DNA of 24,401 nt from a virus (IMGVR_UViG_2802429219_000006:1-24401); one strand, 5' to 3'; positions 1,529 to 23,681 are shown, counted from the first letter of the stretch. Made by a program: numbers and translations. Notes: generated by a model not told the origin, from the sequence alone.

Positions 1529-2738
1529 ACTTGTTGACCTGAACCTGTGATGCCACCGTCGAAAAATAAGAATAGGTATCGCCATAAACCAGACTCGTAT
1601 CTTTCGCAGGCGAGACAATATGGCCGTTAATACCAATGCTCACACTAATTGTTGAGATCAACGTCGCATCAACCAGCAGCCTGACAGAACTGGTAAAAAT
1701 ATCCTGGATACGCAGAAGATTTATCGGGTGTCCGACTTCAATTGAATTGATGTAATCAGCAACGTTTTGCTGCACAGCCATAGCAATACCCGCCGGGTCA
1801 ACATAATCATCAGACACCGTGTTCCAGGTGATTAGCACCATGACGTTTTGTGATGACGGGATAACGAACGGCACCTGATAAACGTCCGGCGAAACGGTTA
1901 TTGAAACCGTGCGTTTTTCCACTGCCGCACCGGATGGATTGCTTACATCGTTGGTCAGTTTCGAAATATCCGGTACAGATTTGTAAATCGCATAAGCCAC
2001 GTCATACGGATCACCGCCACCAACAACCGCAACCCATTTCCCCAGCGACGACTGCCGGAAAGAAATCAGGTTTTCGCGCACACCGCTTACTGATTTGAGC
2101 ATCGCTTTAAAGCAATCCGGTGTTCCCTGCACACCAAACATGCCGGACTCCATGACTTCGGCGCGGTAAGATGCCCACGTTTGCGCCTCCTGACCTGGCA
2201 TTCCTGCGGTAAGGTTCGTGCATTTTACAGGCTGATCTTTGGGTACCGATGTAATGACCTGAGTTACGGTTCCTTCCGGTACAGCCCATGAGCCTGACGT
2301 TATGGCCACACAGTAGACTGGCTCAGTCTGCCCGCTTTCCGGCACCACAGTATCGCGGGAAACTGCATACTGGTAGTTGCCGTCACCGACAACAAATCCT
2401 TTAGGGATACCAAACCCCGGCAACGCCTCAAACACCACGTATACCGCCGTATTTGTACTTAATCCCTTCTGTGCTCCATAAATGTTTCCGAGTTGCATCA
2501 GTAACGGAATATTCGCGCCATATGGGCTTACGGAGTTAATAAGATCCACCCGCGCCTGGTCTATTAATGCCAGCGCCCCGACAGCCGTGCTGGCAAGGTC
2601 TGTAATAAGTCCCGCCGGAAGGTTGGCTGTATATCCAGGTACTTTTTCAGCAACTCTGGTGATAAGATTCGCGAGCAAGTCATTGGGTGGCGTAGGCTGC
2701 GCACCCGCACTGGTCATAGTAATTGGTATTTCTGACAT
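1512..2738 (-). CDS. Putative baseplate wedge protein (gpJ / Mu gp47-like by position)
   Basis: 412-codon ORF in the track, which begins at a TTG at 2750; I prefer the in-frame ATG at 2738 (MSEIPIT...). It lies between the baseplate genes and the tail fibre. No motif was checked. Confidence 0.5.
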   Translation of the reverse strand: MSEIPITMTSAGAQPTPPNDLLANLITRVAEKVPGYTANLPAGLITDLASTAVGALALIDQARVDLINSVSPYGANIPLLMQLGNIYGAQKGLSTNTAVYVVFEALPGFGIPKGFVVGDGNYQYAVSRDTVVPESGQTEPVYCVAITSGSWAVPEGTVTQVITSVPKDQPVKCTNLTAGMPGQEAQTWASYRAEVMESGMFGVQGTPDCFKAMLKSVSGVRENLISFRQSSLGKWVAVVGGGDPYDVAYAIYKSVPDISKLTNDVSNPSGAAVEKRTVSITVSPDVYQVPFVIPSSQNVMVLITWNTVSDDYVDPAGIAMAVQQNVADYINSIEVGHPINLLRIQDIFTSSVRLLVDATLISTISVSIGINGHIVSPAKDTSLVYGDTYSYFSTVASQVQVNKYAISD

Positions 2739-2759
2739 AATTAATCTCAAGAGGATTTT

Positions 2760-3308
2760 ATGAAATTTAACTCATTAGGGATTTTGATTAGCTCACTGCT
2801 ATTTTCTGGTGTTTCTCATGCAATTGATGTCACAGAGAGAATGAATGACATTCAACAATTTGGTAAATGGTATTATGCTGAGTTTACCATGCCTACCACT
2901 ATGGCTTATCGTATTGGTGTTGAATCCAAATTGCCGCAGGATAAATCAACTTTATTTATTGATATATCACCGTTAACTCAATGTGAGCCCGGTGATGTAA
3001 CTGTCAATCATTTTATTGGATATAAACAAATGGATTTACCACCGTTCCTTCCTGTAAGCTATAAAATCAGTGGACAACAAAAGCAGGACTCTATAACACC
3101 CCCATCTATCAATGAAGGTTACTTGTTCAGTCCTATTAGCTCATTAAAGATTAGTGATTTGTTAAAATCTAAAGGGAAAGGTAGTTTTTCTTTTTGGTAC
3201 ACTCCGCCAACTGAAAGTAAAGAAAAACCACAAAAAATATTCTTCCCATTAGATGGCCTTCCGGAAGCATATAAGGCTGCAATCAATTCCTGTAAAGAAA
3301 ACATGTAA
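2760..3308 (+). CDS. Secreted or periplasmic protein of unknown function (moron gene); predicted Sec signal peptide
   Basis: 182-codon ORF with a strong RBS (AAGAGGA, 8 nt upstream of the ATG). N-terminus MKFNSLGILISSLLFSGVSHA-IDV has a basic n-region, hydrophobic core and SHA cleavage motif; two Cys in the mature part. The DNA is visibly AT-rich against the flanking structural genes, and the gene is on the opposite strand to the tail operon. Confidence 0.7.
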   Translation: MKFNSLGILISSLLFSGVSHAIDVTERMNDIQQFGKWYYAEFTMPTTMAYRIGVESKLPQDKSTLFIDISPLTQCEPGDVTVNHFIGYKQMDLPPFLPVSYKISGQQKQDSITPPSINEGYLFSPISSLKISDLLKSKGKGSFSFWYTPPTESKEKPQKIFFPLDGLPEAYKAAINSCKENM

Positions 3309-3326
3309 AATCAGGCAGTGATATTT

Positions 3327-3815
3327 ATGATGCACGCCTTTCTCGAAGTAGGTAAACGCTTTGCTACTTGGATCACCGAGCGAATCAGCTAGTATGAATT
3401 CGTAGAAAATCAGGACTTTTTGATTATTTCCCAAAATCGGGAAATAATCGATAGAGGCATACCAGCTAAAGACTACCACCTCATCCTGGACCCCGCCAAA
3501 GAACTGGCAATGGTCGAGCGCAACGAAAAAGGCTGCCAGATCCGCCGATACTTCATCGAGTGCGAGAAGAAGCTGCGCGAAGAAACCACCAGCACACAAT
3601 CCCCTCTGAATGTTGACATCATCATGCGCGTCAGAAACGGCTCCGTTACCCACATTGAGCACCACAAATCAGGCTCAGTTATAACCACAGAATGGGCAAT
3701 TCACTTACTACGCAAAAGTGGATGGATTGTCATGCCTCGCGATGAACTTCTTAACACGCCACTGGCCCAACTGATGCCCGAAAGCTTGCCTCAAACCGGA
3801 ACCTGCGTCCGGTAA
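3327..3815 (+). pseudogene. AntA-like antirepressor remnant: 5'-truncated, with an in-frame amber codon at 3390-3392
   Basis: Reading frame ATG(3327) MMHAFLEVGKRFATWITERIS-TAG-YEFVENQDFLIISQNREIIDRGIPAKDYHLILDPAKELAMVERNEKGCQIRRYFIECEKKL... The ORF track only reports the part after the stop (3420-3815, TTG start). The WI..RI..Y.FVENQDF and AKELAMVE...RRYFIECE blocks match my memory of the phage AntA/AntB antirepressor domain; the usual N-terminal part of that domain is missing. Confidence 0.5.
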
Positions 3816-4138
3816 CTGGTTCCGTTAAAAAACACAACATCGATGTTATAGGTGGGGTTCTCTGCCCCATCTACCTTTGAAATGGCCAATGATGCAAAAT
3901 ACCCGGCAAACTGTTGCTGAACCATGTTCACATAGTAGTCCGGGTAAATCTGCTGCACGATGCACTGCTGCGCAGGAATACCGTAATTCGCGTAAAATGG
4001 CGACTCCCCCAATCCCAGCTTTAACGTCTGAATGAGCGTCGTCAGCCAGCCGTAGGAGAAATCACCGTTGGCGTCAGATTCTACTGCAACCCATTTTTTG
4101 TTGCCGTTCGGGTCGGTGACGCGGCCCCATGTTCTCAT
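3791..4138 (-). CDS. Putative small baseplate protein (gpW / Mu gp46 position)
   Basis: 115-codon ORF, 4 nt downstream of the preceding gene, with an RBS-like GAAAGG upstream. Assigned by size and position between the spike and wedge genes; the sequence does not obviously match P2 gpW. Confidence 0.4.
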   Translation of the reverse strand: MRTWGRVTDPNGNKKWVAVESDANGDFSYGWLTTLIQTLKLGLGESPFYANYGIPAQQCIVQQIYPDYYVNMVQQQFAGYFASLAISKVDGAENPTYNIDVVFFNGTSYRTQVPV

Positions 4139-4141
4139 ACG

Positions 4142-4339
4142 TCAACCTTTCAAGTAAATTAAGGTGCCGGTAACCAGAGCGGTGCAAATGATCCACGCTA
4201 CTGGAGTCAGAATATGCCGAATACCCCGACATACTGCGATTATTCTCGCAGCCTTATCAGCCTCTTGTGGGGTTGTCTCAGCCTTAATCATCAAATCGTC
4301 TCCAAATTTATCTTTAGGTGCGCTAGAATTTGGTTGCAT
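4142..4339 (-). CDS. Small protein with a C-terminal transmembrane helix (unknown function)
   Basis: ORF 4142-4357 in the track. I prefer the internal ATG at 4339 (MQPNSSAPKDK...), which has a GGAGA Shine-Dalgarno 6 nt upstream; the first ATG has none. C-terminus ILTPVAWIICTALVTGTLIYL is hydrophobic. Confidence 0.4.
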   Translation of the reverse strand: MQPNSSAPKDKFGDDLMIKAETTPQEADKAARIIAVCRGIRHILTPVAWIICTALVTGTLIYLKG

Positions 4340-4382
4340 GAGTAATCTCCATGCCATTACAAATACTGTTCTGTTGATACAA

Positions 4383-4415
4383 AAAGCCCCGAACTGTTCC
4401 AGCAGCCGGGGCTTT
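4383..4415. terminator. GC-rich hairpin with T-tract, candidate intrinsic terminator (mainly for the minus strand)
   Basis: AAAGCCCCG-aactgttccagcagc-CGGGGCTTT. On the minus strand the stem is followed by TTTTTGT. It lies between the stop of the spike gene (4455) and the next gene. Confidence 0.45.
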
Positions 4416-4454
4416 CGCTTTATGAGATAGAATTTAAAGTGAAATGAACCGGAA

Positions 4455-5168
4455 TTAACCCGGATTTGGTTGCTTCGACGTGATCGTGCTGCCGCCGCTT
4501 TGAACGCCAGTCACATCGTGGCTGTGGCCGCTGGCGCTCACGCCGTTGATAACTGCATCTTTCTCGACCTTAAGAGGGCCAATCAGCGAAGCGGTTGTAT
4601 CCTTCATCTGGGCTTTGTCCTGGACGATCGGTCCGTTGAGGTGAATTTTCCCGTTCAGGAAAATATCTTCGGCCTCAAGGTAAACAGCTTTCGACTTTTG
4701 CCTGATTTCTTCCGGAGCCACCGTTACCGAGCTACTGCTGTCCTCTGTTTTGAGGATCGCGCCATCCGGACCGTACAAAACGATTTTTTGCGGATCTTCG
4801 TCGGACCAGTCCTTGTTTGCCAGTGGCACGAAAAACAGTGGAGTGAGCGACATCGAGTAAGAGAGCGTCGCCATACCGGTTCCCAATCCGGACACACCGC
4901 GCAGTGATACATCAGCGGCAATTGTTACTCCTCGATCGCCCGGCTGTATCGGGTAACGAATATACGGGAATGTGGCGACAGGGATTGTTATCTGCGGAAA
5001 ATTGATCCCCTCCGGCAGCATATCAAACTGAACTGTCACTATCTGCCCACTGACATCGACAACATGGCAGGGCAACTCGCGGCCTTTCATATCCATTCTT
5101 GAGCGAGTGTGCTCATCAATCAATGTTGACAGAAGTCGCGTCATTGAATGTTTTTGAGCATTAGACAT
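4455..5168 (-). CDS. Baseplate spike protein (P2 gpV-like)
   Basis: 237-codon ORF. The C-terminal ...GVSASGHSHDVTGVQSGGSTITS resembles the His-rich apex region I recall in P2 gpV (HTHKHPGDSGGTTG). Position is between the hub and wedge genes. Confidence 0.55.
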   Translation of the reverse strand: MSNAQKHSMTRLLSTLIDEHTRSRMDMKGRELPCHVVDVSGQIVTVQFDMLPEGINFPQITIPVATFPYIRYPIQPGDRGVTIAADVSLRGVSGLGTGMATLSYSMSLTPLFFVPLANKDWSDEDPQKIVLYGPDGAILKTEDSSSSVTVAPEEIRQKSKAVYLEAEDIFLNGKIHLNGPIVQDKAQMKDTTASLIGPLKVEKDAVINGVSASGHSHDVTGVQSGGSTITSKQPNPG

Positions 5169-11690: not shown

Positions 11691-12634
11691 TATTTAACCT
11701 CATATTTACAAATAACTTTTTCAATCAACTGCCGGGATATTTCCCGGGCGGTGCTCTGGTAGTAATTCACGTCAAAATCGACAATCTTTTTCTTCGCCAG
11801 AGCGTTGATTTCAACCTGTCCCGACTTTGCGTCCTGAACCACCGGAATATTGGTTACACCAAACTTTTCCTCCTCCAGCGCCCTGTTCACCACCGAGTCG
11901 ACAAGATCCAGCGCCATTTTGTTGCTGAATCCGTAAAGCGTCAGGCGAACCGAATCCTGGACGAGCTGGAATCGCTCACCACCGAAAACAACGGGAGCCA
12001 CCTGCAACGGAATACTGTTGCGAACATCCACCGCGATATACGGAGGACGAAGGTTCTGCGGTACCAGGTAAGACGGATACACGGTCGCGGCATCTTTCAT
12101 TTGCAGCCAGATCGGGATGCTGTTGGAGATGATCTGCTCGTCGCTGATATCCTCCTCGCAGTCGATAATCTGAGAGCGCATGGTTGGTAAAATCGCCATA
12201 CCGCGATAATGAAAAATACCCGACTGCTGATAACGGCTCTCCATTCGTGAAAAAGCGAACTGGACGCCGCCGTACTCACCGAGATAGATCGCATCGGGAT
12301 TTTCCACATTAAAATCATCAACCTGCTGAACAGGCGTGAAAATAATGTTGTTCACATCCTTCGAGACAGACTCGTCCTGAATCGCAATAACCTGACGATG
12401 CAGGCTGCCTTTGATTTTCAGACGAGTTGGTGACTCAATATTCAGGCGACACAGTTCATCGCAACTGATGATTTCCGCATTAACCCAATAGACAAAGCCA
12501 TCCAGCGGCAGAACCTGCCGGACATAGAGCCTGAACGTGATTTCCTGGTCTGACGAGATGGTTTCAACTGCGGATTTAAGAACGGACGAGAGCTGCGAAC
12601 TGTGCTGTTCGGCTAATTCCTCAAGACTCGGCAT
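11690..12634 (-). CDS. Structural protein between head and tail modules (unknown function)
   Basis: 314-codon ORF with ATG start; its stop overlaps the sheath gene start (TAATG). Confidence 0.5.
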   Translation of the reverse strand: MPSLEELAEQHSSQLSSVLKSAVETISSDQEITFRLYVRQVLPLDGFVYWVNAEIISCDELCRLNIESPTRLKIKGSLHRQVIAIQDESVSKDVNNIIFTPVQQVDDFNVENPDAIYLGEYGGVQFAFSRMESRYQQSGIFHYRGMAILPTMRSQIIDCEEDISDEQIISNSIPIWLQMKDAATVYPSYLVPQNLRPPYIAVDVRNSIPLQVAPVVFGGERFQLVQDSVRLTLYGFSNKMALDLVDSVVNRALEEEKFGVTNIPVVQDAKSGQVEINALAKKKIVDFDVNYYQSTAREISRQLIEKVICKYEVK

Positions 12635-13061
12635 TATTATCTATCCACGCTATAAAGCTGCCCTTAAACAGGCCGCCGTCTATGAATGACGGACGCCGCT
12701 CTCCGGTATATTTGTCCTTAAGCCTGGAGTTAACGCCCAGTAGCGCGGCCTGAGTTGGCACAGGGTTTCCGTTAATCGTCATCCCGGCCATTTCCTCGGC
12801 TTCCAGAAAACGGTGAAAAATCCCGCGGATATCGCCCATAACCTGCACAGGTGGCAACGGCACTTTATTTTTGAGATGGCGAATGAGCTGGAACGCAACC
12901 ATCTCCCCTGCCTCCTGGATAATCTCGTCCTTATGCATTTCCCAGAAGTGCGTAAAAATTTCGTATCGTTCCTCGAGGTCACAGGCCACGTCGAACGTGG
13001 TTTTTCCCGGTTCGTCGCCGTAGTCATACGGCTGGTCGACAACACCAAAACAAAGTTTCAT
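12621..13061 (-). CDS. Head-tail joining / completion protein (putative)
   Basis: ORF 12621-13076 in the track. I prefer the ATG at 13061 (MKLCFGVVDQ...), which overlaps the upstream stop as ATGA and follows a GGGGG Shine-Dalgarno-like run. Confidence 0.45.
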   Translation of the reverse strand: MKLCFGVVDQPYDYGDEPGKTTFDVACDLEERYEIFTHFWEMHKDEIIQEAGEMVAFQLIRHLKNKVPLPPVQVMGDIRGIFHRFLEAEEMAGMTINGNPVPTQAALLGVNSRLKDKYTGERRPSFIDGGLFKGSFIAWIDNNAES

Positions 13062-13498
13062 GGCGAGTACCCCCATACCGTGCCCATCTGCATCAGCACC
13101 GCAACAACCTGTCGTCCATACGGATCCTGCAACATCTGCAAATCCAGCAAAGACAGATTACTCAGCGCGTCGCTGATGGTGATCGAGCCCGATGTCCCCT
13201 GGTCTGCTGCCGCGCTGACAAGCCCGGTAGCCAGTTTCCCAAGGTTGAGTTTTTTTCTCAGGTCGGCAAACCACGAGCCGGGGGCGAAATTCAGGAGAAA
13301 TGAGGCGGCAGCGTTATAAACCGTTCGCACATAGATGATGGGTAAACGCTCCAGCCCCTGATCGTGAGGGATTAGCTCCATCGCAGACTGAAAGCAACAT
13401 TCCAGCGTCGGATCATCGTCAGCAATAGCATGAACCGGTACTTTCATGTCGTCACGAACAAAGCGAATAAATCCCTCCAGTGACGGACGCAAGGTCAT
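13058..13498 (-). CDS. Head-tail joining / completion protein (putative)
   Basis: 146-codon ORF, translationally coupled to its neighbours. Confidence 0.45.
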   Translation of the reverse strand: MTLRPSLEGFIRFVRDDMKVPVHAIADDDPTLECCFQSAMELIPHDQGLERLPIIYVRTVYNAAASFLLNFAPGSWFADLRKKLNLGKLATGLVSAAADQGTSGSITISDALSNLSLLDLQMLQDPYGRQVVAVLMQMGTVWGYSP

Positions 13499-13968
13499 TA
13501 TTTTTTAACCTTAATATTTCGCTTTGTGCTGGGCGGATTTTCCTGTTCAGTGTTAATCGCTTCCCCGGTGATTTCCATTTCAATACCACCCGGTTGAGGT
13601 TTTTCGCCACTCTGAATCACTGCCTGATCCACTGCGTTATTCAGCGATACGGCGCTGGCTGCGAGAATTTCTTCTGACAGGGATTCCAGATTTTCCGTTT
13701 TCTGCTCCGCGCAATCCTCAATGCGACCGACGCTCACAGGTTTATCGATGGAATAGCAGATACCGGAAAAATTCTTGTCCACCTTGTCACAACGCTGGAA
13801 TCCGTAAGGCTCATGCTGTCGGATGATGTGGTCGATAATATCGGACTGATTTTCGATCATATGCTGACGTCCGGACGGAATTGTCACACCGAACGACTGC
13901 GCTTTTTCGGGGAGTTTATAGTTGAACGTGTGCGGCTGACGTGAGCAGTTAGCGATGTAGAGTTTCAT
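13498..13968 (-). CDS. Hypothetical structural protein downstream of the capsid gene
   Basis: The track ORF begins at a TTG at 13983, inside the terminator T-tract; I prefer the ATG at 13968 (MKLYIANCSRQ...). Confidence 0.45.
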   Translation of the reverse strand: MKLYIANCSRQPHTFNYKLPEKAQSFGVTIPSGRQHMIENQSDIIDHIIRQHEPYGFQRCDKVDKNFSGICYSIDKPVSVGRIEDCAEQKTENLESLSEEILAASAVSLNNAVDQAVIQSGEKPQPGGIEMEITGEAINTEQENPPSTKRNIKVKK

Positions 13969-13981
13969 AAATTTTTCCCAC

Positions 13982-14006
13982 AAAAAAGGGGAGCATTTAG
14001 CTCCCC
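13982..14006 (-). terminator. Intrinsic terminator or attenuator after the major capsid gene
   Basis: Minus-strand GGGGAGC-uaaau-GCUCCCC followed by UUUUUU, about 20 nt after the capsid stop at 14026. Confidence 0.55.
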
Positions 14007-14025
14007 GCGTTATCAGGTTGAACGT

Positions 14026-15054
14026 TTATGCGTATTTGGCAGACAACAGGGTGATCCCCTCCGGGCGGAAGTTCCAGCCCGGCGTCGCGCGCATGGTATA
14101 CAACGTGGTCAGGCCGCCATCCGGCATAGGGGACGGGATTTCCGTCGGCGCTGCCATGTCGCAGAACATCACATTGACGGCCTGCTGGTTCGGGATCAGC
14201 GTGGAGAAAATATTGGTGTTAATGGCGTGACGCGCTTCCGGAACCTCAATCGTCGGGTTCGTAACGATAATCAGGTCATTACCACCAGCGCCTTTACCGA
14301 TCAGCGTGTCATCCTGGCAGAAAATGATGTCATCGCCCGTCGCCTTATCAGCGACGTCTTTAACCACCGTTCCCACCGTTCCGCTACCGCCACCAGGGCG
14401 CTGGTAACTGGTCAGCTCAACAATTCCTGTCCACTCCAGCGCCTTCATGAATCGCTGTGGGCTCAGAATGACGGTCGTTAATGGCTGCCCCAACAGCAAC
14501 ATGCGGGTTTTCTGGTCAGCAATCAGGCCAAGCATAAATTTAGCCATCTCGCCGGAATCCCAGGTGGTATATGAATCATTCCCTTTGCTGTCGTTGCCCA
14601 GATTCAGCGTCACTGCATTCGGGGAGTTGGTGATCCCCTCGTTATTAGCTGCATTCACACCATACAGCAGCATATTACGCAACATTTGAGCGTGTCCCTG
14701 GCGGTTAGCCAGGCGCAGGCCTTCAATCAGAGAATATCCCCAACGATCTGCTGCATCAGTATCGAGATAGCTGTATTGCGAGCGGGAAGAAATTCGGTAA
14801 GTCATCATCCCGTCATAGCCGCCAGAGATACTGGAAGACGGTAACTGGCCTGGCAGAGACTGGCCGACCTGCGCCTGCGAGGTCATGCGCAGATATTTCT
14901 GATAGACCATCAAATCACTGGAACTGATTTTTACCGCTGGAGCACCGCCAGCCAGGACTTCAAACGCACCGGAAGCCATGCTCTGTTGCACGATCATTTC
15001 CGGCAGCACCATTGACGGCGACACAATAGTAGTCGCAGGAGTAAATGCGCTCAT
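14026..15054 (-). CDS. Major capsid protein (putative)
   Basis: 342-codon ORF at the end of the head module, followed by a terminator hairpin. Not similar to lambda gpE as far as I recall. Confidence 0.5.
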   Translation of the reverse strand: MSAFTPATTIVSPSMVLPEMIVQQSMASGAFEVLAGGAPAVKISSSDLMVYQKYLRMTSQAQVGQSLPGQLPSSSISGGYDGMMTYRISSRSQYSYLDTDAADRWGYSLIEGLRLANRQGHAQMLRNMLLYGVNAANNEGITNSPNAVTLNLGNDSKGNDSYTTWDSGEMAKFMLGLIADQKTRMLLLGQPLTTVILSPQRFMKALEWTGIVELTSYQRPGGGSGTVGTVVKDVADKATGDDIIFCQDDTLIGKGAGGNDLIIVTNPTIEVPEARHAINTNIFSTLIPNQQAVNVMFCDMAAPTEIPSPMPDGGLTTLYTMRATPGWNFRPEGITLLSAKYA

Positions 15055-15068
15055 TAATTAATATCCCC

Positions 15069-15686
15069 TTAAATTAAAAACAGGCCGCACGGTTTGCCGT
15101 TTTCCCAGACAACGTTACCGCCATCCTCTTTTTTCACCGTCAGGTTTCCGTCAACTGAAACCATCAGCAGCTTAATATCCACTTTCGGATTAGCTCCGGG
15201 TGATCCCGAATAAACATCAACCATGTTTTTCGTCAGATCCCACACAAAACCACTGGCAGCAACAGTGTTATTGCCATCAGCCAACGCAACAACTTCTGCA
15301 CTGACAGGGAGAGGAATGCGGGCACCTGAGCCAACGCGGTAATAGTGAATAAAGCCACCCGCGAGATATAACGGCACCGGATTATCCGGCGTGGTAATGC
15401 CATGAAATGCCTGATTAAAGACAGTAAAGGCGTTACAGGCGTCCTTCGTGGCTTGCTTAATTACCGCGCCGTTAACGCTGTCTTTCGCGGGAGCAATGCA
15501 CTCCATAACTCCAACGCCACCCCATACCGGTTCAGTGATTTTGCTGTCCAGTCGACCGGAGCAAAGTTGCAGACGAATTGCCGGATCATCCTGCGCATCC
15601 CCCTGCATCAGCCCACGGGATTCGACGTTAAAAAGGCCACCAAACGCCCCACGGTTTTTAAACGGATGAAAGTTAATATCAGCCAT
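15069..15686 (-). CDS. Head protein (decoration or minor capsid, unknown)
   Basis: 205-codon ORF between the scaffold and capsid genes. Confidence 0.45.
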   Translation of the reverse strand: MADINFHPFKNRGAFGGLFNVESRGLMQGDAQDDPAIRLQLCSGRLDSKITEPVWGGVGVMECIAPAKDSVNGAVIKQATKDACNAFTVFNQAFHGITTPDNPVPLYLAGGFIHYYRVGSGARIPLPVSAEVVALADGNNTVAASGFVWDLTKNMVDVYSGSPGANPKVDIKLLMVSVDGNLTVKKEDGGNVVWENGKPCGLFLI

Positions 15687-15963
15687 TGTTCAGGCTCCCT
15701 TGAGTGTTAATTTTTGCCAGACGACGCCCCGGAATTTTGAAGGCACTCAGCCAGACGTTCGGATCGCCCTGATATTCAGTAATGCGACGCCCGGCTTCGT
15801 CGTTGCGGATGCGTTTATGCAGTTGCCCCTGCGTACTCATCATTTCTTTTTCGATGGACTGACGGGCGGCACTGAAAATTGCGTCTTCAAGCACAGCCAG
15901 CGTTGCAGAATCCGCAATCGCGCGAATATTGACGTCCTTATGTGCCGGAGAGTGTTTCTGCAT
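15679..15963 (-). CDS. ORF in the -1 frame of the scaffold gene 3' end; probably the true C-terminal part of the scaffold/protease protein
   Basis: 94-codon ORF with no Shine-Dalgarno. Its frame stays open a further ~40 codons upstream of the ATG with protein-like sequence (...GKNAPAPFSGENALDYRKRALIA-MQKHSPAHK...). Confidence 0.35.
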   Translation of the reverse strand: MQKHSPAHKDVNIRAIADSATLAVLEDAIFSAARQSIEKEMMSTQGQLHKRIRNDEAGRRITEYQGDPNVWLSAFKIPGRRLAKINTQGSLNNG

Positions 15964-17000
15964 AGCGATAAGCGCACGCTTGCGGTAGTCCAGCGCATTT
16001 TCACCAGAAAACGGTGCTGGCGCGTTTTTACCGCAGGCACTGAATGCAGAGTCGGCTTTTCCTGCGCTTCTGCCAAGGCAGAATCATTGCGTTCTTTTTC
16101 TGCCTCCTCGTCGGCCTTACGCTGTTCTTCTGCTTCGGAATCAGCCTTTGCTTTCTCCTCAGCGTCTTTAGCTGCCGCCTCGTCAGCTTTGGCTTTTTCT
16201 TCCGCCTCCTTTGCCGCAGCTTCATCAGCTTTACGCTGTTCCTCTGCGGCTTCATCGGCTTTGGCCTTTTCTTCGGCCTCTTTTTTCGCCTGCTCTTCAG
16301 CATCCGCCCGCGCTTTGTCCCGCTGTTCCAGTGAGTCCATGCGCGTGACTACTCCATCGATTTTCTGATTAATGCCGCTCAGGGCATCGTTCACCACCCC
16401 CTGTAACAGGGCCTGGAGTTCTTCTTTTTCCATCTCAATTTCACCTGTATTTGTCACTTCAACCCCTGCGGGGATCCGGTCTTTATCCCACACGCCCAGC
16501 GAGCCGTGGTCTTTCGTCACCAGGGCGATGTGATCAACAAGGAAAGGAACGCCTTCGATTAAAAAATTGGTGTCACCTTCCTGTACTTCCACATTTCCTG
16601 ATGTGCTGTTGAACACCACCGACGGGCTTGTCGAAACATCCCCCTCGGTGATTTCTTCAACAATGCTCTGGAGGTAAACGCGGCACACCGCCCATACCTC
16701 ATCACCCCGGATATACGGCAGCATGACGCTACCGACGATCCGCGATTTAAAGTCCTCCTCCGTCAGAACTGCGTCGTCAGGATGGTTTGCGATAACCGGA
16801 AGGCCATTGCATCGCCTTAAAAACTCCTCGTTCAGATAGAGCTTTGGATCACGCCAGACGTGCTCTTTCAGCCCGGCGCGATAGGCAAGCCCGGTTCCGG
16901 TTATTCGCAAATTCACCAGCCACATGTTGGAGAATTTCACCGGAGACGGTACGGTTCCGTCCCTGATGCGTTCTGCCACTTCAAGCTCGGTTAAACTCAC
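15840..17000 (-). CDS. Prohead scaffold / protease-like protein with Ala/Glu/Lys coiled-coil repeats; apparent frame break near the 3' end
   Basis: 386-codon ORF with GTG start at 17000 and a GGAGAAGGG Shine-Dalgarno. Contains the repeat AEEKAKADEAA / AEEQRKADEAA. The last ~55 codons (…RQHRFLVKMRWTTASVRLSLCRNTLRHIR…) look like out-of-frame translation. Confidence 0.55.
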   Translation of the reverse strand: MSLTELEVAERIRDGTVPSPVKFSNMWLVNLRITGTGLAYRAGLKEHVWRDPKLYLNEEFLRRCNGLPVIANHPDDAVLTEEDFKSRIVGSVMLPYIRGDEVWAVCRVYLQSIVEEITEGDVSTSPSVVFNSTSGNVEVQEGDTNFLIEGVPFLVDHIALVTKDHGSLGVWDKDRIPAGVEVTNTGEIEMEKEELQALLQGVVNDALSGINQKIDGVVTRMDSLEQRDKARADAEEQAKKEAEEKAKADEAAEEQRKADEAAAKEAEEKAKADEAAAKDAEEKAKADSEAEEQRKADEEAEKERNDSALAEAQEKPTLHSVPAVKTRQHRFLVKMRWTTASVRLSLCRNTLRHIRTSIFARLRILQRWLCLKTQFSVPPVSPSKKK

Positions 17001-17814
17001 GTTTGCCCTTCTCCGTTAAAAATTCGTCGGGTAGTTTCTGAGGGGCGTAGATCGGCAGTGCATCGCAACTGCAATAAACCTCCTCCCCGGCAGCAGTGAT
17101 TTCGTCATAAAAACCATATACGGGCTTAATCAGCCCCTGCTCCAGCGCCCACGAATCGCGGAGGAGATAAATTTTCTCGTCGCGCTCTTTGTGGTCCTGT
17201 CGGTATTTGTAGCCCGGACGCCGCCAGTTAGAATGCCAGCGCAGAGCAATCGCTCCACTCTGAACAGCCAGCAGATACTTAACGTTGCTTGCCAGCTTAT
17301 GCCCCTGGTCAATTGCCACCCGACGACTGATAAAATCCATATCCTTCACGGATTTCTGAAACCCGGACTTCACTTCCCGGCGATCAATTTCGCTCACCCC
17401 GTCAGGCGGAATGGACGTAACCCACCCCTGAAAACGCTGTATGGTTTTCTCGATGGCCTGTTCGCGGTTGAGTTTTATCAGGTTGGCACTGGCGAAAATT
17501 CGCCTGTCGAGTTCCTTGCGAAACTCAGGTTTCAGTTTTTCAACAGTGATTTTTTTTGGGCCGTCAGGAGGCTGATCCCGTAATGCCCCGCCGTCGATGA
17601 CAAGACGGCTGTAGATAGCGGTGAGGTGTTTTCTGGCTACGGTATCATCAGGGGTTTCTCGCTGAGCGGCTACACGGAGTTTCCGGCACCATTCGAGCAA
17701 TGATTTTTCGCTATCCCACCCGCGATTTACGTAGTAGTTAACGGCATCCGTCAGAACCTCATACAGCGTCCTGATCCGTTTCTTCTTCCTCACCGCCCGG
17801 CTGGAAATTGCCAT
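16981..17814 (-). CDS. Head morphogenesis / minor head protein (putative)
   Basis: ORF 16981-17952 in the track. I prefer the ATG at 17814 (MAISSRAVRKKKR...), which has an AGGAGA Shine-Dalgarno and overlaps the acidic portal C-terminus by about 56 nt. Confidence 0.45.
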   Translation of the reverse strand: MAISSRAVRKKKRIRTLYEVLTDAVNYYVNRGWDSEKSLLEWCRKLRVAAQRETPDDTVARKHLTAIYSRLVIDGGALRDQPPDGPKKITVEKLKPEFRKELDRRIFASANLIKLNREQAIEKTIQRFQGWVTSIPPDGVSEIDRREVKSGFQKSVKDMDFISRRVAIDQGHKLASNVKYLLAVQSGAIALRWHSNWRRPGYKYRQDHKERDEKIYLLRDSWALEQGLIKPVYGFYDEITAAGEEVYCSCDALPIYAPQKLPDEFLTEKGKREFNRA

Positions 17815-19195
17815 CAGGCGTCTCCTGCTTCGGTGGTTCATAATTCGCCAGCGCGTCCACATCAATGATGAGTGGAGCTTCGCCATAGGTTTGCGTGGCA
17901 TTAACAAGGCTTGCCAGCCATTCAGCGAGGGCGGCGCGGTTTTCAGGATCAACCTGTGGCGACACGGCAGAGAAAAGTGCTATCGCCTGTTGAATCACTT
18001 TACTGTCGCTTTCCCGGCGTTTGTCCGGCGACTCCTCAACCAGCTCCTGCCACGTCGCGGTAAATTCACGTCGCCACTGGTAAAACGTGGTTTTATAGTC
18101 GTCTGTTATGATGTCCGGGTAATCATTTTTCAGCGACTGATAAAATTCCTCGTTCCAGGCGATGTACTGCACCAGGCGTTCGAAATAATCCATCACAGGT
18201 TCAATCTGCTGGCGTACACCATCGATATACTGGCTGATAGCTTTCGAGTCCTCCTTACCTTCACCGAATCCGTTACTGAACGCTTCTTCCTTGATAATAA
18301 TGGCCGGAACGTCACTCCCGGCGGCAATATCAGCAATGATGTTGTCGCGGGATGTATTCAGCGCCCCGTCGATGTTTTGCAGGTTCAGTGAACTTACGTC
18401 TTCGTCTTTTCCAATACTCAACACGCCTTTATTTTTGGCGGCTTTCACGTTTTCCCTTTTACGCCCCGTGGCAGCAGCCATGATCCCGTCAATTTTCGAA
18501 CCGTTCTGCACAACTTTAGCCACCAGTACGCCTGCCTTCTGGCTGACGAGATCATTCGCCTCCATCGTATTGATATAGGATTTCAGGGAATAAAGAACTC
18601 GCTGAAACACGCTTCGCCCGGTGAATCCGAACGATGAACTCTGAAACTCCAGATAAATCGGTGTGCCGTTGAAGATTTTCAGTGTGCGTGACGGATGCCA
18701 GTCTTTTCCGCCAATCTTCAGTTTTTTATTGGCTTCCTGGAAAAACGGGCTGTTGGGGTTCTGGTCAGTCACCATCGAACCGGAAGCGTTCAACGGGTCC
18801 CACGCGTTGATATACACGTCATCTTCTGTCAGTCCGAACGTCGGAAGCGGTTCACGACATGAAACACTGTCGGTGCCCACGCCGATCGCTGCGGCACCGT
18901 AGCAACGAGACAGAAAAAACAGATTTTTAATCTTCTCGTTAACCTTCATACGTTCCCATACCTCCTGGAAACGCCGCACAACCCGCTCGTCAGGGTCTGT
19001 CTCCACGTTGTACTGGCGCGGCTTACACATCGCCATAAGTATGGGTTTTTCGACAAGTTTCCCGCCCAGCGGGTGGTACTGCCACAGCAGTTTACACAGT
19101 TCATAGCCAATGTCGGTTCCCGGCTGAATTTCTTCAGCCTCAAGAATGCGCATCAGCGAAGAACTGAGATTTACAGAAATCTCGATCTCAGCCAT
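17759..19195 (-). CDS. Portal protein
   Basis: 478-codon ORF immediately downstream of the large terminase gene, with an acidic C-terminal tail (GGEEEETDQDAV). Position and size are typical. Confidence 0.7.
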   Translation of the reverse strand: MAEIEISVNLSSSLMRILEAEEIQPGTDIGYELCKLLWQYHPLGGKLVEKPILMAMCKPRQYNVETDPDERVVRRFQEVWERMKVNEKIKNLFFLSRCYGAAAIGVGTDSVSCREPLPTFGLTEDDVYINAWDPLNASGSMVTDQNPNSPFFQEANKKLKIGGKDWHPSRTLKIFNGTPIYLEFQSSSFGFTGRSVFQRVLYSLKSYINTMEANDLVSQKAGVLVAKVVQNGSKIDGIMAAATGRKRENVKAAKNKGVLSIGKDEDVSSLNLQNIDGALNTSRDNIIADIAAGSDVPAIIIKEEAFSNGFGEGKEDSKAISQYIDGVRQQIEPVMDYFERLVQYIAWNEEFYQSLKNDYPDIITDDYKTTFYQWRREFTATWQELVEESPDKRRESDSKVIQQAIALFSAVSPQVDPENRAALAEWLASLVNATQTYGEAPLIIDVDALANYEPPKQETPDGNFQPGGEEEETDQDAV

Positions 19196-19214
19196 CAGAA
19201 AAAAATCCAGATTT

Positions 19215-21672: not shown

Positions 21673-21733
21673 ACGGATTTACCTCCTGGGCTAAAAAGTT
21701 TTTTCATCAACAGAAATCTGTCAAAAGGAAATA

Positions 21734-21789
21734 AAAGCTCGCTATCGGCCAGTGCGCTGGGTGCGCGGCGGGTGCTGATAACGAGCTTT
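21734..21789 (-). terminator. Large imperfect hairpin with U-rich tail upstream of the small terminase gene (terminator-like)
   Basis: AAAGCTCG (21734-21741) pairs with CGAGCTTT (21782-21789), with further inner pairing TATC/GATA. On the minus strand it is followed by TTTTATTTCCTTTT. Confidence 0.35.
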
Positions 21790-21829
21790 GGCATTATCGC
21801 AGCCCCTCACAGAAGAGCTGCTGTAATGC

Positions 21830-22197: not shown

Positions 22198-22323
22198 CCT
22201 TCAGTGGGGGAGAAGAGCATCCCCCACATTCATATATCAACCAGATTAGATAACAGAATTTCATGCTTCCTAGACAATGGCGCCCCTTCATTTTTCAGCG
22301 AAATATTCTGCTCTTACGGGCGA

Positions 22324-22506
22324 TCAGTTCTGCAGACACTGCCGGACACTATCAACAATTTCGCAGACCTGAGAAGCTGTATCGAAAAGCTGGCGCGCCT
22401 TATCTAGGCTGACGCACCCCACCAATAAAAAAGGCACCAGTATCGCTACCAGTGCCCATTTTGCCGCCGCTCGCGGCATTCTGTGTGTCCAGTGTTTTCG
22501 GCTCAT
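22324..22506 (-). CDS. Small putative lipoprotein
   Basis: 60-codon ORF. N-terminus has basic residues, a hydrophobic stretch and an LLVGC lipobox; the mature part would be about 29 aa with two further Cys. Its ATG lies 1 nt after the stop of the upstream 37-codon ORF. Confidence 0.45.
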   Translation of the reverse strand: MSRKHWTHRMPRAAAKWALVAILVPFLLVGCVSLDKARQLFDTASQVCEIVDSVRQCLQN

Positions 22507-22507
22507 A

Positions 22508-22621
22508 TCACCACCAACGCACAGCCCAAATCAGAACAGCGACCGCCACAAGGCGAATTGCAAAGGCCGCAGCCCTTGTCAAATCAAGGCTCGCGGGAGT
22601 TTCCACTTCAATACCTTTCAT
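22508..22621 (-). CDS. Small transmembrane peptide (37 aa), not in the ORF track
   Basis: My own translation of the minus strand: ATG at 22621, MKGIEVETPASLDLTRAAAFAIRLVAVAVLIWAVRWW, stop TGA then T then the ATG of the lipoprotein ORF. GAGG Shine-Dalgarno-like element upstream. Confidence 0.35.
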   Translation of the reverse strand: MKGIEVETPASLDLTRAAAFAIRLVAVAVLIWAVRWW

Positions 22622-22712
22622 AATGGACAACCTCAAAAAGAATCTTTTATACTTTCCCACGAGGATTTTCTCCGTACTCACTACTCACAATTTCCTCTTT
22701 GACGTGAAAACT

Positions 22713-22747
22713 AAAAACCCCGGACTGTTCCAGCAGCCGGGGTTTTT
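22713..22747. terminator. Bidirectional intrinsic terminator
   Basis: AAAAACCCCGG-actgttccagcag-CCGGGGTTTTT: an 11-bp stem flanked by an A-tract and a T-tract, so it gives a hairpin plus U-run on both strands. Located just downstream of the endolysin gene. Confidence 0.6.
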
Positions 22748-22840
22748 GCTATCTGATGCTGTACCCCTTACTTTCGCTCATAGTAACCCCAGAAAAGAGC
22801 CTCCGTGAGTTGAGGGTGTTCAGCACTTCAGCGTCAGTTT

Positions 22841-23386
22841 TTAAACTGCTACGCGCTCTTTCATCCAGCCGTAGACAAACGACTCGTTGGCCTCGCGTTT
22901 TTCTGCCAGCTCCAGATAGCGGTCGCCCTGCGTGCAATTCAGCGCCTTCAGCATCACCAGTTCGCCGTCTTTGCCGCGTTTTTGCAGATAAGTCCGTAGT
23001 GCATTAATCGTGCGGGGGCCGATACGCCCGTCTGCGTCCATATCCGGGAACAATTTGCCTTGCAGGTTGAAAACGTTCAGCCAGCGTTGGAGCATTTTCG
23101 ATGCTACGGACGGCCCCATATTCACACCGGTATCACACAACTCTGCAGCAATATCAGAGGATAATGCGGCCACCTGATCAAAGCGTGGTCCGAACCAGTA
23201 ATCCGCCTCAAGGATTTCCAGCGCCTGTTCGCGTGTCAGGTCACGCATATCGCCCTGATATCCGTGAGCGCGGGCGACTTTTTCCGTAATACCCCATTTT
23301 GTCGGTCCGCCTTTATCATCCGGGTGATTGACGTAACCGCCCTCTTTTCCCAGAACTTCGTCAAAAATTTCATCTTTCGACTTCAT
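22841..23386 (-). CDS. Endolysin, GH108-type lysozyme with peptidoglycan-binding C-terminal domain
   Basis: ORF 22841-23407 in the track. I prefer the ATG at 23386 (MKSKDEIFDEVLGKEGGYVNHPDDKGGPTKWGIT...), the typical GH108 N-terminal motif; the downstream ...ADGRIGPRTINAL... resembles a PG-binding domain. The start is 1 nt after the upstream membrane protein's stop. Confidence 0.8.
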   Translation of the reverse strand: MKSKDEIFDEVLGKEGGYVNHPDDKGGPTKWGITEKVARAHGYQGDMRDLTREQALEILEADYWFGPRFDQVAALSSDIAAELCDTGVNMGPSVASKMLQRWLNVFNLQGKLFPDMDADGRIGPRTINALRTYLQKRGKDGELVMLKALNCTQGDRYLELAEKREANESFVYGWMKERVAV

Positions 23387-23387
23387 A

Positions 23388-23681
23388 TCAGCGCCTTCGT
23401 AATACAAAGATTTTTGAAACGTTCCCGCGTGCGCGAATCACCAACACGCAGAACAGCAGATTAAGCCCCACCGCCAGCCAGTTCGCCGCTAACGGGCGAC
23501 CGCACAGATAGCTGAGGGGCGCAAAGGCATAAAGCAGCATCAGCAGCCAGGCCAGCCATGACATCAGCGGTTTATGTCTGGAATCACGGCGACGATAAAA
23601 AAAGAGCGTCAGCACGATAACCGTGCATAACGCCACATTCAGCAATCCGGGAAGGTTACTTAACATTATCGCCTCCTCCAC
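23388..23681 (-). CDS. Membrane protein with about 3 predicted TM helices (holin or antiholin candidate)
   Basis: 97-codon ORF directly upstream of the endolysin. Hydrophobic segments LPGLLNVALCTVIVLTLFFY, LMSWLAWLLMLLYAFAPLSYL and LAANWLAVGLNLLFCVLVI; basic C-terminus. Confidence 0.5.
   Translation of the reverse strand: MEEAIMLSNLPGLLNVALCTVIVLTLFFYRRRDSRHKPLMSWLAWLLMLLYAFAPLSYLCGRPLAANWLAVGLNLLFCVLVIRARGNVSKIFVLRRR

What the first reader, a model, noticed from the sequence alone, without database searches (positions are those of the whole stretch)
4383..4415. First copy of a repeated ~27-nt hairpin element (CCCCGRACTGTTCCAGCAGCCGGGG), shared with 22713-22747
The hairpins at 4383-4415 and 22713-22747 share a near-identical core of about 24 of 27 bases, including an identical 13-nt loop, although they sit about 18 kb apart in different modules (tail genes versus the lysis/packaging junction). 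Independent terminators would not be expected to share loop sequence, so this suggests a duplicated regulatory element, a protein or RNA recognition site, or a module-boundary recombination sequence.
Basis: seen in the sequence. Interest (0 to 1): 0.5.

Follow-up and report, generated by a model that had tools for sequence, protein, structure and literature searches.

The report
Two sar-like antisense-RNA terminator hairpins
The repeated hairpin is real and is a relative of the terminator of phage P22's small antisense RNA "sar"; in this E. coli prophage it sits in front of two small membrane-protein genes, probably ending an antisense RNA that silences them and also marking spots where phages swap genes.

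Summary
There are two copies of a 25-nt core (4387-4411 and 22718-22742), identical at 24 of 25 bases, where none is expected by chance. The window is a Rac-SA53-like E. coli prophage with its late genes on the minus strand.

The element is not a host repeat. It occurs in 4% of complete E. coli genomes, at a median of one copy, always in prophage DNA.

The "13-nt loop" is really a bulge, a 4-bp inner stem and a tetraloop. A-runs and T-runs flank the stem, so it has the shape of a terminator on both strands.

The hairpin is homologous to the terminator of P22 sar RNA:
- 24-26 of 30-31 bases match.
- A covariance model built only from ant-linked sar RNAs ranks the two sites first and second in the window, both on the plus strand (E about 2e-6 and 1e-4).
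- They fall below Rfam's own threshold for sar.

In every relative a small C-terminal-TM protein gene follows the hairpin. A sar-type -10 box (TATACT) lies antisense in that gene's first codons. Flanks on both sides are mosaic, and Rac-SA53 and pPE4 carry the hairpin flipped.

Best reading: a sar-like cis-antisense module that also acts as a two-way terminator and a module-boundary sequence. No transcript has been shown. I class it as a new variant of a known kind.

The parts
4382..4421 (.). Hairpin copy 1 with its A-run and T-rich tail (core 4387-4411). It lies 43 nt after the stop of the baseplate-V-like gene and 29-47 nt before the small gene.
   Evidence: The sar-only covariance model R1 hits 4350-4419 on the plus strand with 35.4 bits, E 1.7e-6.
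22713..22750 (.). Hairpin copy 2 with A5 and T5 tracts (core 22718-22742). It lies 98 nt after the GH108 endolysin stop and 36 nt before the small gene.
   Evidence: R1 hits 22686-22750 on the plus strand with 27.4 bits, E 1.2e-4. Rfam sar gives 23.3 bits, below the gathering score of 43.
22624..22653 (+). Predicted antisense promoter of copy 2: TGGACA, 18 nt, TATACT. The -10 box lies inside the first codons (AAG TAT AAA) of the small gene.
   Evidence: It is the best promoter-like site (10 of 12) in window 12001-24401 on either strand. The same -35 and -10 boxes are kept in diverged classes D1, D1b, D2, D5 and V5. TATACT is also the -10 box of P22/epsilon34 Psar.
22660..22750 (+). Predicted sar-like antisense RNA of about 90 nt. 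It is complementary to two Shine-Dalgarno/GTG start sites of the small gene (GGAG 22673-22670 with GTG 22660-22658; AGAGGA with GTG 22681-22679) and ends at hairpin 2.
   Evidence: Inferred. It folds as a 5' stem-loop plus terminator, like sar: -30.4 kcal/mol, z -4.3. No transcript data exist.
4301..4329 (+). Weaker candidate antisense promoter of copy 1: TCCAAA, 17 nt, TAGAAT.
   Evidence: 8 of 12 matches, below the threshold of the scan. Its position relative to the ATG at 4339 is similar to that of Psar.
4336..4421 (+). Predicted sar-like antisense RNA of copy 1, about 85 nt. It covers the ATG at 4339-4337 and the Shine-Dalgarno GGAG at 4350-4347 of the small gene. The stretch 'tgttgatac' just 5' of the hairpin is shared with ant-type sar RNAs.
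   Evidence: Inferred; no transcript data.
22508..22681 (-). Small gene after copy 2: 57 aa from GTG 22681, 50 aa from GTG 22660, or 37 aa from ATG 22621. It has a single C-terminal transmembrane helix.
   Evidence: It matches PHROGs 4493, 1115 and 3246, all of unknown function. All homologues are 'hypothetical protein', found on more than 1000 E. coli contigs.
4142..4357 (-). Small gene after copy 1: 71 aa, or 65 aa from ATG 4339. It has a C-terminal hydrophobic helix and no detectable homology to the copy-2 protein.
   Evidence: No family match. hhalign probability 0.1 against the copy-2 family.
22841..23407 (-). GH108 endolysin, the gene upstream of copy 2.
   Evidence: Pfam Glyco_hydro_108 plus PG_binding_3.
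4455..5168 (-). Baseplate protein (bppV-like), the gene upstream of copy 1.
   Evidence: Annotation of Rac-SA53 and pPE4. Weak match to TIGR01644 phage_P2_V.
22324..22506 (-). 60-aa lipoprotein-like ORF (lipobox LLVGC) that abuts the copy-2 small gene.
   Evidence: PHROG 7528, unknown function.

Best explanation
Each hairpin is the 3' terminator stem-loop of a sar-type cis-antisense RNA module. The module is the same kind that phage P22 uses to silence its antirepressor gene, but here it is attached to small membrane-protein genes. Proposed mechanism: RNA polymerase starts at a promoter on the plus strand inside the first codons of the small gene (site 2: TGGACA-18-TATACT). It transcribes back across the start codon and ribosome-binding site and stops at the hairpin, giving an RNA of about 85-90 nt. 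This RNA pairs with the late mRNA and blocks translation of the small membrane protein. Unlike in P22, the stem is flanked by an A-run and a T-run, so the same hairpin also has the form of an intrinsic terminator for the late (minus-strand) transcript. It would stop stray read-through in the lysogen and be overridden by the antiterminated late transcription complex. Because this roughly 33-bp element is the only sequence shared between otherwise unrelated neighbours, it also acts as a short homology patch (a 'boundary sequence') at which phages exchange the genes on either side. That is why near-identical copies sit in two different modules. Shown here: the duplication, the structure, homology to the sar terminator, the mosaic joints, and the constant association with a small TM-protein gene. 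Inferred: that the antisense promoter fires, that the RNA represses translation, that termination occurs in either direction, and that recombination uses the element.
For: Homology to sar:
- The best sub-threshold Rfam hit at both sites is sar (RF00262), on the plus strand.
- 24-26 of 30-31 bases are identical to the epsilon34 sar terminator; 0 of 2000 shuffles reach that score.
- Some ant-linked sar copies carry exactly our inner GACTGTTCCAGCAG.
- Covariance model R1, built only from 21 ant-linked sar RNAs, ranks site 1 (35.4 bits, E 1.7e-6) and site 2 (27.4 bits, E 1.2e-4) first and second in the window, both on the plus strand. The next unrelated hit scores 9.4 bits.
- The helix is kept across both groups: 99.3% of cells paired, 5 pairs changed on both sides, 0 of 500 shuffles reach the observed values.

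Same layout as the annotated epsilon34 arc | hairpin | RBS-ant arrangement, with Psar inside ant:
- The hairpin lies 17-70 nt upstream of the small gene.
- GGAGAAAATCCTCGTGGGAAAGTATA in the window compares with GGAGAAAAACCAACATGAATAGTATA in epsilon34.

Promoter:
- The best promoter-like site in 12.4 kb lies exactly there, on the antisense strand.
- The -35 and -10 boxes are kept in diverged gene classes.
- The complement of the -10 box, AGTATA, starts 6 nt from the first base of the ATG in ant (codons AGT ATA) but 7 nt from the first base of the start codon in the small genes (AAG TAT AAA). The reading frame differs, so conservation is at the DNA level.
- An A-run precedes the stem in all unrelated upstream flanks. 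This matters mainly for an antisense-direction terminator.

Other:
- The predicted RNAs fold like sar.
- Mosaic joints are documented.
- CUS-3 annotates the sar region as 'bsq2; boundary sequence'.
Against: - Both sites score well below Rfam's gathering threshold for sar: 23.3 and 17.7 bits against 43. The best relative reaches 27.2.
- Outside the hairpin the similarity is short.
- The site-1 promoter is weak (8 of 12, no extended -10).
- The site-1 base change favours minus-strand folding.
- In Rac-SA53 and pPE4 the hairpin is flipped, so the sar-like fold lies on the late-gene strand. Orientation relative to the small gene is therefore not essential.
- Most gene callers start the site-2 protein at an internal ATG, giving 37 aa. 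The predicted RNA would not cover that start.
- There are no transcript, 3'-end or toxicity data of any kind.
Confidence: 0.6

Rival explanations
1. The hairpins are plain intrinsic terminators or insulators of the late operon, inherited along with inserted accessory genes (moron boundaries). They descend from the sar terminator, but no functional antisense RNA is made here.
For: On the minus strand both copies are textbook terminators: a GC stem followed by UUUUU. Other terminator-like sites lie inside the late operon at 14006-13988 and 24089-24074, so read-through by antitermination is needed anyway. The flipped hairpin in Rac-SA53 and pPE4 works equally well under this view. The site-1 promoter is weak.
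Against: It does not explain several things. The -10/-35 pair is kept inside the small gene across diverged classes and in a different reading frame from ant. An A-run is kept on the upstream side in all flank classes. Every copy is followed at a fixed short distance by a ribosome-binding site arranged like the ant RBS.
Confidence: 0.25
2. The element exists mainly as a recombination linker: a short conserved 'boundary sequence' kept because it promotes exchange of flanking modules between phages. Any terminator activity is incidental.
For: At least five unrelated upstream and at least five downstream sequence classes are joined exactly at the hairpin. L048 combines the site-1 upstream gene with a 5' UTR otherwise seen after endolysins. 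The same is true around sar in P22-like phages. CUS-3 annotates that region as a boundary sequence. The model of recombination at boundary sequences is described in PMC3233612.
Against: About 33 bp is short for efficient homologous exchange. A linker needs no stem, yet the helix is maintained by compensatory changes and by a variant with a different inner stem. Selection for 'evolvability' alone is a weak force. This is better seen as a consequence of a conserved functional element than as its purpose.
Confidence: 0.1
3. The hairpin is a binding site for a protein or a structured DNA site, for example for packaging, replication or an antiterminator. It would be recognised through its loop sequence.
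For: Only the near-identity of the two window copies, loop included.
Against: Loop positions vary freely in the family. The hairpin is inverted in close relatives. It is absent from site 2 of Rac-SA53 and pPE4, which are otherwise 94% identical.
Confidence: 0.03

Closest known systems
sar RNA of Salmonella phage P22 / epsilon34 (Rfam RF00262; a 68-69-nt antisense repressor of ant translation; Liao et al. 1987 and Wu et al. 1987 as cited in PMC2629481 and PMC12197685)
   Same: The terminator stem-loop is homologous: a 14-bp helix with a U-N-C-N tetraloop and an inner GACUGUU.C.GCAG that is identical in some copies. It sits in the gap just upstream of the target gene's ribosome-binding site, on the opposite strand. 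A TATACT -10 box lies in the first codons of the target. The predicted RNA has two hairpins. It lies at a mosaic joint inside a late operon.
   Different: The targets are small single-pass membrane proteins, not the antirepressor, and there is no arc/mnt. The outer stem is all Watson-Crick and is flanked by A5 and U5 runs, so it is terminator-shaped on both strands, whereas the P22 version is one-way. The predicted RNAs are longer (85-90 nt). There are two copies per genome. The host phage is a Rac-SA53-like lambdoid myovirus, not P22-like. The score is below Rfam's gathering threshold.
Conserved 'boundary sequences' of lambdoid phages (bsq features of HK620 and CUS-3; Clark et al. 2001 from my own knowledge; the model is summarised in PMC3233612)
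   Same: A short conserved intergenic sequence flanked by non-homologous modules in different phages. The CUS-3 feature bsq2 covers the sar region itself.
   Different: Here the boundary element can be given a concrete molecular identity (an antisense-RNA terminator) and a defined structure. Recombination at it has not been demonstrated.
Type I toxin-antitoxin loci (hok/sok, ldr/rdl, ibs/sib, shoB/ohsC)
   Same: A small hydrophobic membrane peptide whose ribosome-binding region is overlapped by a short cis-antisense RNA ending in an intrinsic terminator. There are in-frame alternative upstream starts, reminiscent of mok/hok.
   Different: There is no sequence or Rfam match to any known type I family. 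The toxin gene has no promoter of its own downstream of the hairpin and depends on late-operon read-through. Toxicity is untested.
Lambda oop RNA and moron-flanking terminators of HK97/HK022 (my own knowledge)
   Same: A short phage antisense RNA that ends at a hairpin next to a gene end, and terminators that delimit accessory genes inserted into late operons.
   Different: oop overlaps the 3' end of cII, not a ribosome-binding site. Moron terminators normally lie downstream of the accessory gene, whereas this one lies upstream.

Membership tests
sar RNA (Rfam RF00262) | Score at or above Rfam's gathering threshold (43 bits) | tested here: not met
   23.3 bits at site 2 and 17.7 bits at site 1. 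The best relative (L093) reaches 27.2 bits.
sar RNA (Rfam RF00262) | 3' terminator stem-loop with the family's sequence and structure | tested here: met
   Model R1, built from ant-linked sar RNAs only, gives E 1.7e-6 and 1.2e-4 on the plus strand. 24-26 of 30-31 bases are identical. The helix is 99.3% paired with 5 compensatory pairs.
sar RNA (Rfam RF00262) | Lies antisense to the intercistronic region and ribosome-binding site of the gene immediately downstream (in the late direction) | tested here: met
   The hairpin lies 29-47 nt (site 1) and 36-57 nt (site 2) before Shine-Dalgarno-preceded starts. The layout matches the epsilon34 annotation.
sar RNA (Rfam RF00262) | Antisense promoter (Psar, -10 TATACT) inside the first codons of the target gene | tested here: inconclusive
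   Site 2 has TGGACA-18-TATACT, 10 of 12, the best site in 12.4 kb, and it is conserved in relatives. Site 1 has only TCCAAA-17-TAGAAT, 8 of 12. These are consensus matches, not activity.
sar RNA (Rfam RF00262) | Target is the antirepressor gene ant within an immI region (mnt, arc, ant) | tested here: not met
   The downstream genes are small TM proteins of 45-71 aa. The only ant-like sequence is a remnant on the opposite strand at 3420-3815.
sar RNA (Rfam RF00262) | A small RNA is made and represses translation of the target | not testable with these tools
   Needs Northern or dRNA-seq data and reporter fusions.
Intrinsic (Rho-independent) terminator, two-way | GC-rich hairpin followed by a U-run on each strand | tested here: met
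   Minus strand: UUUUUAG at site 2 and CUUUUUG at site 1. Plus strand: UUUUUGC at site 2 and the weaker CUUUCGCUUU at site 1. Free energies are -20 to -25 kcal/mol.
Intrinsic (Rho-independent) terminator, two-way | Transcript 3' ends map to the U-runs | not testable with these tools
   Needs Term-seq.
Lambdoid boundary sequence | A short conserved intergenic sequence with non-homologous modules on either side in different phages | tested here: met
   For example, L004 is unrelated upstream and 100% identical downstream; L009 is 90% identical upstream and unrelated downstream; L048 against site 1 is 92% identical upstream and unrelated downstream.
Type I toxin-antitoxin | A small hydrophobic toxin plus a cis-antisense RNA, matching a known family or with shown toxicity | tested here: inconclusive
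   The small TM proteins are present. There is no match in Rfam, Pfam, NCBIfam or PADLOC. Toxicity is not testable here.
Host interspersed repeat (REP/BIME/ERIC-like) | Many copies scattered over the chromosome of most strains | tested here: not met
   219 of 5426 E. coli genomes carry it, with a median of 1 copy and a maximum of 6. The copies examined lie in prophages. There is 1 hit among 185,579 species-representative genomes.

The most novel reading that the evidence does not exclude
The hairpin marks a portable 'antisense-gated small membrane peptide' cassette. A sar-derived antisense RNA would keep a potentially membrane-active peptide (toxin-like, lysis-timing or exclusion protein) untranslated until late transcription swamps it. 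This would be, in effect, a previously unrecognised phage-borne type-I-toxin-antitoxin-like family. It is present in over a thousand E. coli assemblies, sits at two different places in the late operon, and its invertible two-way terminator doubles as the recombination joint through which different peptide genes are swapped in.
Probability: 0.3. Interest if true: 0.65.

Novelty: new variant of a known kind. Interest (0 to 1): 0.45.

Why it matters
Since 1987 sar has been treated as a one-off regulator of the P22 antirepressor, and a 2025 review still lists it that way. If the modules found here are active, the sar design is a reusable part. The design is a promoter inside the target's first codons, an anti-RBS segment and a terminator. 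Enterobacterial phages would be attaching it to other genes, here unannotated small membrane proteins in the lysis cassette and the baseplate operon. It would also give one of the long-debated 'boundary sequences' of mosaic phage genomes a concrete function. That would explain why such a short sequence is conserved where everything around it is exchanged. For annotation, it flags two small genes and two small RNAs that pipelines miss or call inconsistently.

Tried and rejected
- Rfam at gathering thresholds over the whole window found nothing.
- Host repeat: rejected. The element is in 4% of genomes, at a median of one copy, in prophage contexts. A scan of one genome per species gave a single hit, in a metagenome-assembled contig.
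- The hairpin as part of a duplicated gene: rejected. The two downstream proteins show no homology, and DNA similarity between the two sites ends at the hairpin.
- Function of the small proteins: PHROGs gives only 'unknown function'. Pfam, NCBIfam and PADLOC give nothing, and database homologues are all 'hypothetical'.
- Link to the LT-II toxin insertion of Rac-SA53: the 2012 LT-II flanking-sequence paper does not mention a hairpin or terminator. Rac-SA53 and pPE4 lack the site-2 copy altogether.
- A weak resemblance of the hairpin plus the flank 'UUUUUGCUAUCUGAUG' to the rimP leader (28.7 bits against 47), and to ohsC, F6 and His leader, was judged to be terminator-driven noise.
- Loop-specific recognition: rejected on loop variability and the flipped allele.
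- The primary structure paper on sar (PMC1369469) is not held. The statements about how sar acts on ant rest on secondary citations and my own knowledge.

Full report
**Observation.** The 25-nt core CCCCGRACTGTTCCAGCAGCCGGGG is present exactly twice, at 4387-4411 (one mismatch) and 22718-22742. No match is expected by chance, even allowing three mismatches. Including the flanking A and T runs, about 29 of 33 positions are identical. Both copies fold strongly on both strands, at -20.3 to -24.7 kcal/mol with z-scores of -3.2 to -5.0. On the plus strand it is a bulge, a 4-bp inner stem (CUGU/GCAG) and a UCCA tetraloop. On the minus strand it is a 3-bp inner stem and a hexaloop.

**Context.** The window is 94-95% identical to Escherichia phage Rac-SA53 and to 'Actinobacillus phage' pPE4. 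By their annotation and by ORF content, all late genes run on the minus strand.

In the direction of late transcription:
- Copy 2 lies 98 nt after the GH108 endolysin (23407..22841; Pfam). It lies 36 nt before a small ORF (22681..22508).
- Copy 1 lies 43 nt after the baseplate-V-like gene (5168..4455). It lies 29-47 nt before another small ORF (4357..4142).

On the minus strand each hairpin is followed by UUUUU. On the plus strand, copy 2 is followed by UUUUUG and copy 1 by CUUUCGCUUU. The element therefore has terminator shape in both directions.

**Not a host repeat.** A 51-nt query around copy 2 finds matches in only 219 of 5426 complete E. coli genomes, with a median of one place per genome and a maximum of six. 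The places inspected are prophage lysis or baseplate regions. Among deposited phages, only phiSTEC1575-Stx2k carries the copy-2 form. One genome per species across 185,579 species gives a single hit, in a metagenome-assembled contig. IMG/VR holds 54 exact copies.

**A mosaic joint.** When the 54 viral copies are put in one orientation, at least five unrelated upstream sequences and at least five unrelated downstream sequences are seen. They are combined in different ways, and homology breaks at the edges of the hairpin with its A and T runs. Examples relative to the window:
- L004: unrelated upstream, 100% identical downstream.
- L009: 90% identical upstream, unrelated downstream.
- L048 against site 1: 92% identical upstream, unrelated downstream.

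L048 joins the baseplate-gene flank of site 1 to a 5' UTR that otherwise follows endolysins.

**What follows the hairpin.** In every class the next gene encodes a protein of 45-71 aa with one C-terminal hydrophobic helix. These proteins fall into PHROGs of unknown function (4493/1115/3246, 6632 and 12997). They have no Pfam, NCBIfam or PADLOC match. Database relatives of the copy-2 protein are all 'hypothetical'. They are mostly called as a 37-aa form and occur on more than 1000 E. coli contigs. The two proteins in the window are not detectably related to each other. What is duplicated is therefore the hairpin module, not a gene.

**Identity of the hairpin.**
- With relaxed thresholds, the best Rfam hit at both sites is sar RNA (RF00262), on the plus strand. 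The scores are 23.3 and 17.7 bits against a gathering score of 43.
- The annotated sar of phage epsilon34 lies between arc and ant, with its promoter Psar inside the start of ant.
- Its terminator matches ours at 24-26 of 30-31 positions. None of 2000 shuffles reach that score.
- A scan of IMG/VR for GACTGTTNCNGCAGNNGGGG returned about 90 ant-type sar modules. Some have exactly our inner sequence GACTGTTCCAGCAG. It also returned small-TM-type modules with the loop variants seen in P22.
- I built a covariance model from 21 ant-linked sar RNAs only. In the window with filters off, its two best hits are site 1 (4350-4419 plus strand, 35.4 bits, E 1.7e-6) and site 2 (22686-22750 plus strand, 27.4 bits, E 1.2e-4). 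The opposite strands score 24.5 and 8.5 bits. The best unrelated hit scores 9.4 bits.
- Across ant-type and small-TM-type sequences the 14-bp helix is 99.3% paired, with five pairs changed on both sides. No shuffle reaches these values, and the slid controls fall to 35-55% paired. That alignment is fitted to the model, which favours it.

I conclude that the hairpin is a homologue of the sar terminator. It does not pass Rfam's own membership threshold.

**Evidence for an antisense promoter.** The best sigma-70-like site in window 12001-24401 on either strand is TGGACA-18-TATACT at 22624-22653 on the plus strand. It points at hairpin 2 from inside the small gene. TATACT is also the -10 box of Psar.

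The same -35/-10 pair is kept in the diverged classes D1, D1b, D2, D5 and V5. Its predicted start lies 37-91 nt from the hairpin. The rac58-type gene has TGcTAAAAT at the equivalent place. Class D3 has TATACT further in. Site 1 of the window has only TCCAAA-17-TAGAAT.

The complement of the -10 box, AGTATA, begins 6 nt from the first base of the ATG in ant (codons AGT ATA). It begins 7 nt from the first base of the start codon in the small genes (AAG TAT AAA, or TTTG ATTTTA). It is therefore read in a different frame, which argues for conservation at the DNA level.

The stretch from the ribosome-binding site to the -10 box also lines up. The window has GGAGAAAATCCTCGTGGGAAAGTATA and epsilon34 has GGAGAAAAACCAACATGAATAGTATA. 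At site 1 the nine bases tgttgatac just before the hairpin are shared with ant-type sar RNAs.

The predicted RNAs (22660-22750 and 4336-4421, plus strand) fold into a 5' stem-loop plus terminator, like sar. All of this is inference from sequence. No transcript has been seen.

**Variation of the hairpin.**
- The two free tetraloop positions vary in ant-type and small-TM-type copies.
- 31 loci have a CTGGGGGAA loop variant.
- L134-L139 have a different inner stem and loop (CCCCGTTTGTTGGCAGCAAGCGGGG) but keep the outer stem and the A and T runs.
- In Rac-SA53 and pPE4 the site-1 hairpin is the reverse complement of the window's, with two substitutions, between the same flanks. The sar model accordingly prefers the late-gene strand there, at 35.4-35.6 against 26.6 bits.

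Loop sequence and orientation are therefore not what is selected. The helix with its two flanking runs is.

**Mechanism proposed.** By analogy with sar, a short plus-strand RNA starts in the first codons of the small gene and ends at the hairpin. It pairs with the ribosome-binding region and represses translation. The sar mechanism is taken from Liao et al. 1987 and Wu et al. 1987, as cited in PMC2629481 and PMC12197685.

The added A and U runs make the hairpin a terminator for minus-strand transcription too. Inside a roughly 20-kb late operon that contains other terminator-like sites (14006-13988 and 24089-24074), such a terminator must be read through. In lambdoid phages that is the job of Q-type antitermination (established knowledge; Q itself lies outside the window).

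As the only conserved island between exchangeable neighbours, the element would also act as a boundary sequence for recombination. The model is described in PMC3233612, and the CUS-3 annotation 'bsq2' covers the sar region.

My confidence in the whole package is 0.6. Confidence is high for homology and the mosaic joint, moderate for an active antisense RNA at site 2, and lower for site 1.

**Rivals.**
- A plain inherited terminator with no active antisense RNA (0.25). This fits the flipped allele and the weak site-1 promoter. It does not explain the conserved antisense promoter and the upstream A-run.
- A recombination linker as the primary purpose (0.1). The joints are real, but a linker would not need a helix maintained by compensatory change.
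- A loop-specific protein or DNA site (0.03). This is contradicted by the loop variation and the inversion.

**Comparison and novelty.** The element works like P22 sar and shares its terminator by descent, but it fails two membership criteria (the Rfam threshold, and ant as the target). It differs in being two-way, in its targets, in copy number and in host phage type. It resembles type I toxin-antitoxin loci in layout only. A 2025 review of phage small RNAs lists sar solely as the P22 ant regulator, and I found no report of sar-like modules on other genes. I class it as a new variant of a known kind.

The interest is moderate. It is a neat, testable extension of a classical system, and it gives a concrete identity to a 'boundary sequence'. 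It is unproven at the RNA level.

Noticed in passing
L001 6433-6459 (Rac-SA53) and L002 5620-5646 (pPE4), equivalent to window 4387-4411: The site-1 hairpin is present as the reverse complement of the window's version (2 substitutions) between identical flanks. This is a small inversion confined to the palindrome. One of the substitutions restores an A-U pair.
   Followed up: partly
window 22324-22506 (-), with a hairpin plus T-run at 22457-22432: A 60-aa ORF with a lipoprotein signal (LLVGC) directly abuts the small TM gene. A strong terminator-like hairpin lies inside it. No Rz/Rz1-type spanin gene is evident between the endolysin and the small terminase, so this pair might be an unusual lysis accessory.
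   Followed up: partly
window 2482-3815 (+): An island of plus-strand ORFs converges on the baseplate genes. It includes an AntA/AntB antirepressor remnant (3420-3815; Pfam 25.1 bits, just under the cutoff). The first terminator-shaped site downstream on that strand is hairpin 1, about 570 nt away, so these transcripts may run antisense over 3791-4357.
   Followed up: partly
window 21700-22840 compared with L001 23440-24755 and L002 22935-24216: The slot between the endolysin and the small terminase holds different cargo in close relatives. The window has the hairpin, the small TM gene and a lipoprotein ORF. Rac-SA53 has the LT-IIa enterotoxin genes. pPE4 has a KilA-N gene. It is a hot spot for accessory genes.
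   Followed up: partly
whole window compared with PP818812.1 and NZ_CM135829.1 (L057): 'Actinobacillus phage vB_Apl-pPE4' is about 95% identical to this E. coli prophage. The same prophage type sits in an assembly labelled E. coli DH5alpha (4.83 Mb). The stated Actinobacillus host looks doubtful.
   Followed up: no
window 24089-24074 (-) and 14006-13988 (-): There are strong terminator-like hairpins just upstream of the two holin genes and just after the 342-aa ORF 15054..14026. This is consistent with a late operon that depends on processive antitermination.
   Followed up: no
L155 around 365-384 (IMG/VR metagenome contig); the same core also in L176 and L192: The same hairpin core (AGCCTCGACTGTTGCAGCAGTCGGGGC plus T7) occurs in L155 behind a good promoter (TTGACG-17-TATGGT) in an unrelated viral contig. 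L176 and L192 carry related core variants, without that promoter or T7 run shown. This suggests a wider family of small-RNA terminators sharing this core.
   Followed up: no
window 22743-22758 (+) and L009 674-766: The flank after hairpin 2 (UUUUUGCUAUCUGAUG) gives a sub-threshold resemblance to the Rfam rimP leader (28.7 bits against 47 in L009). It is probably chance.
   Followed up: no
window 22508-22681 (-): The small gene has three in-frame starts, each with its own Shine-Dalgarno-like sequence (57, 50 and 37 aa). Pipelines mostly call the 37-aa form, but synonymous differences between diverged relatives suggest the upstream part is translated. The arrangement is reminiscent of mok/hok.
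   Followed up: partly
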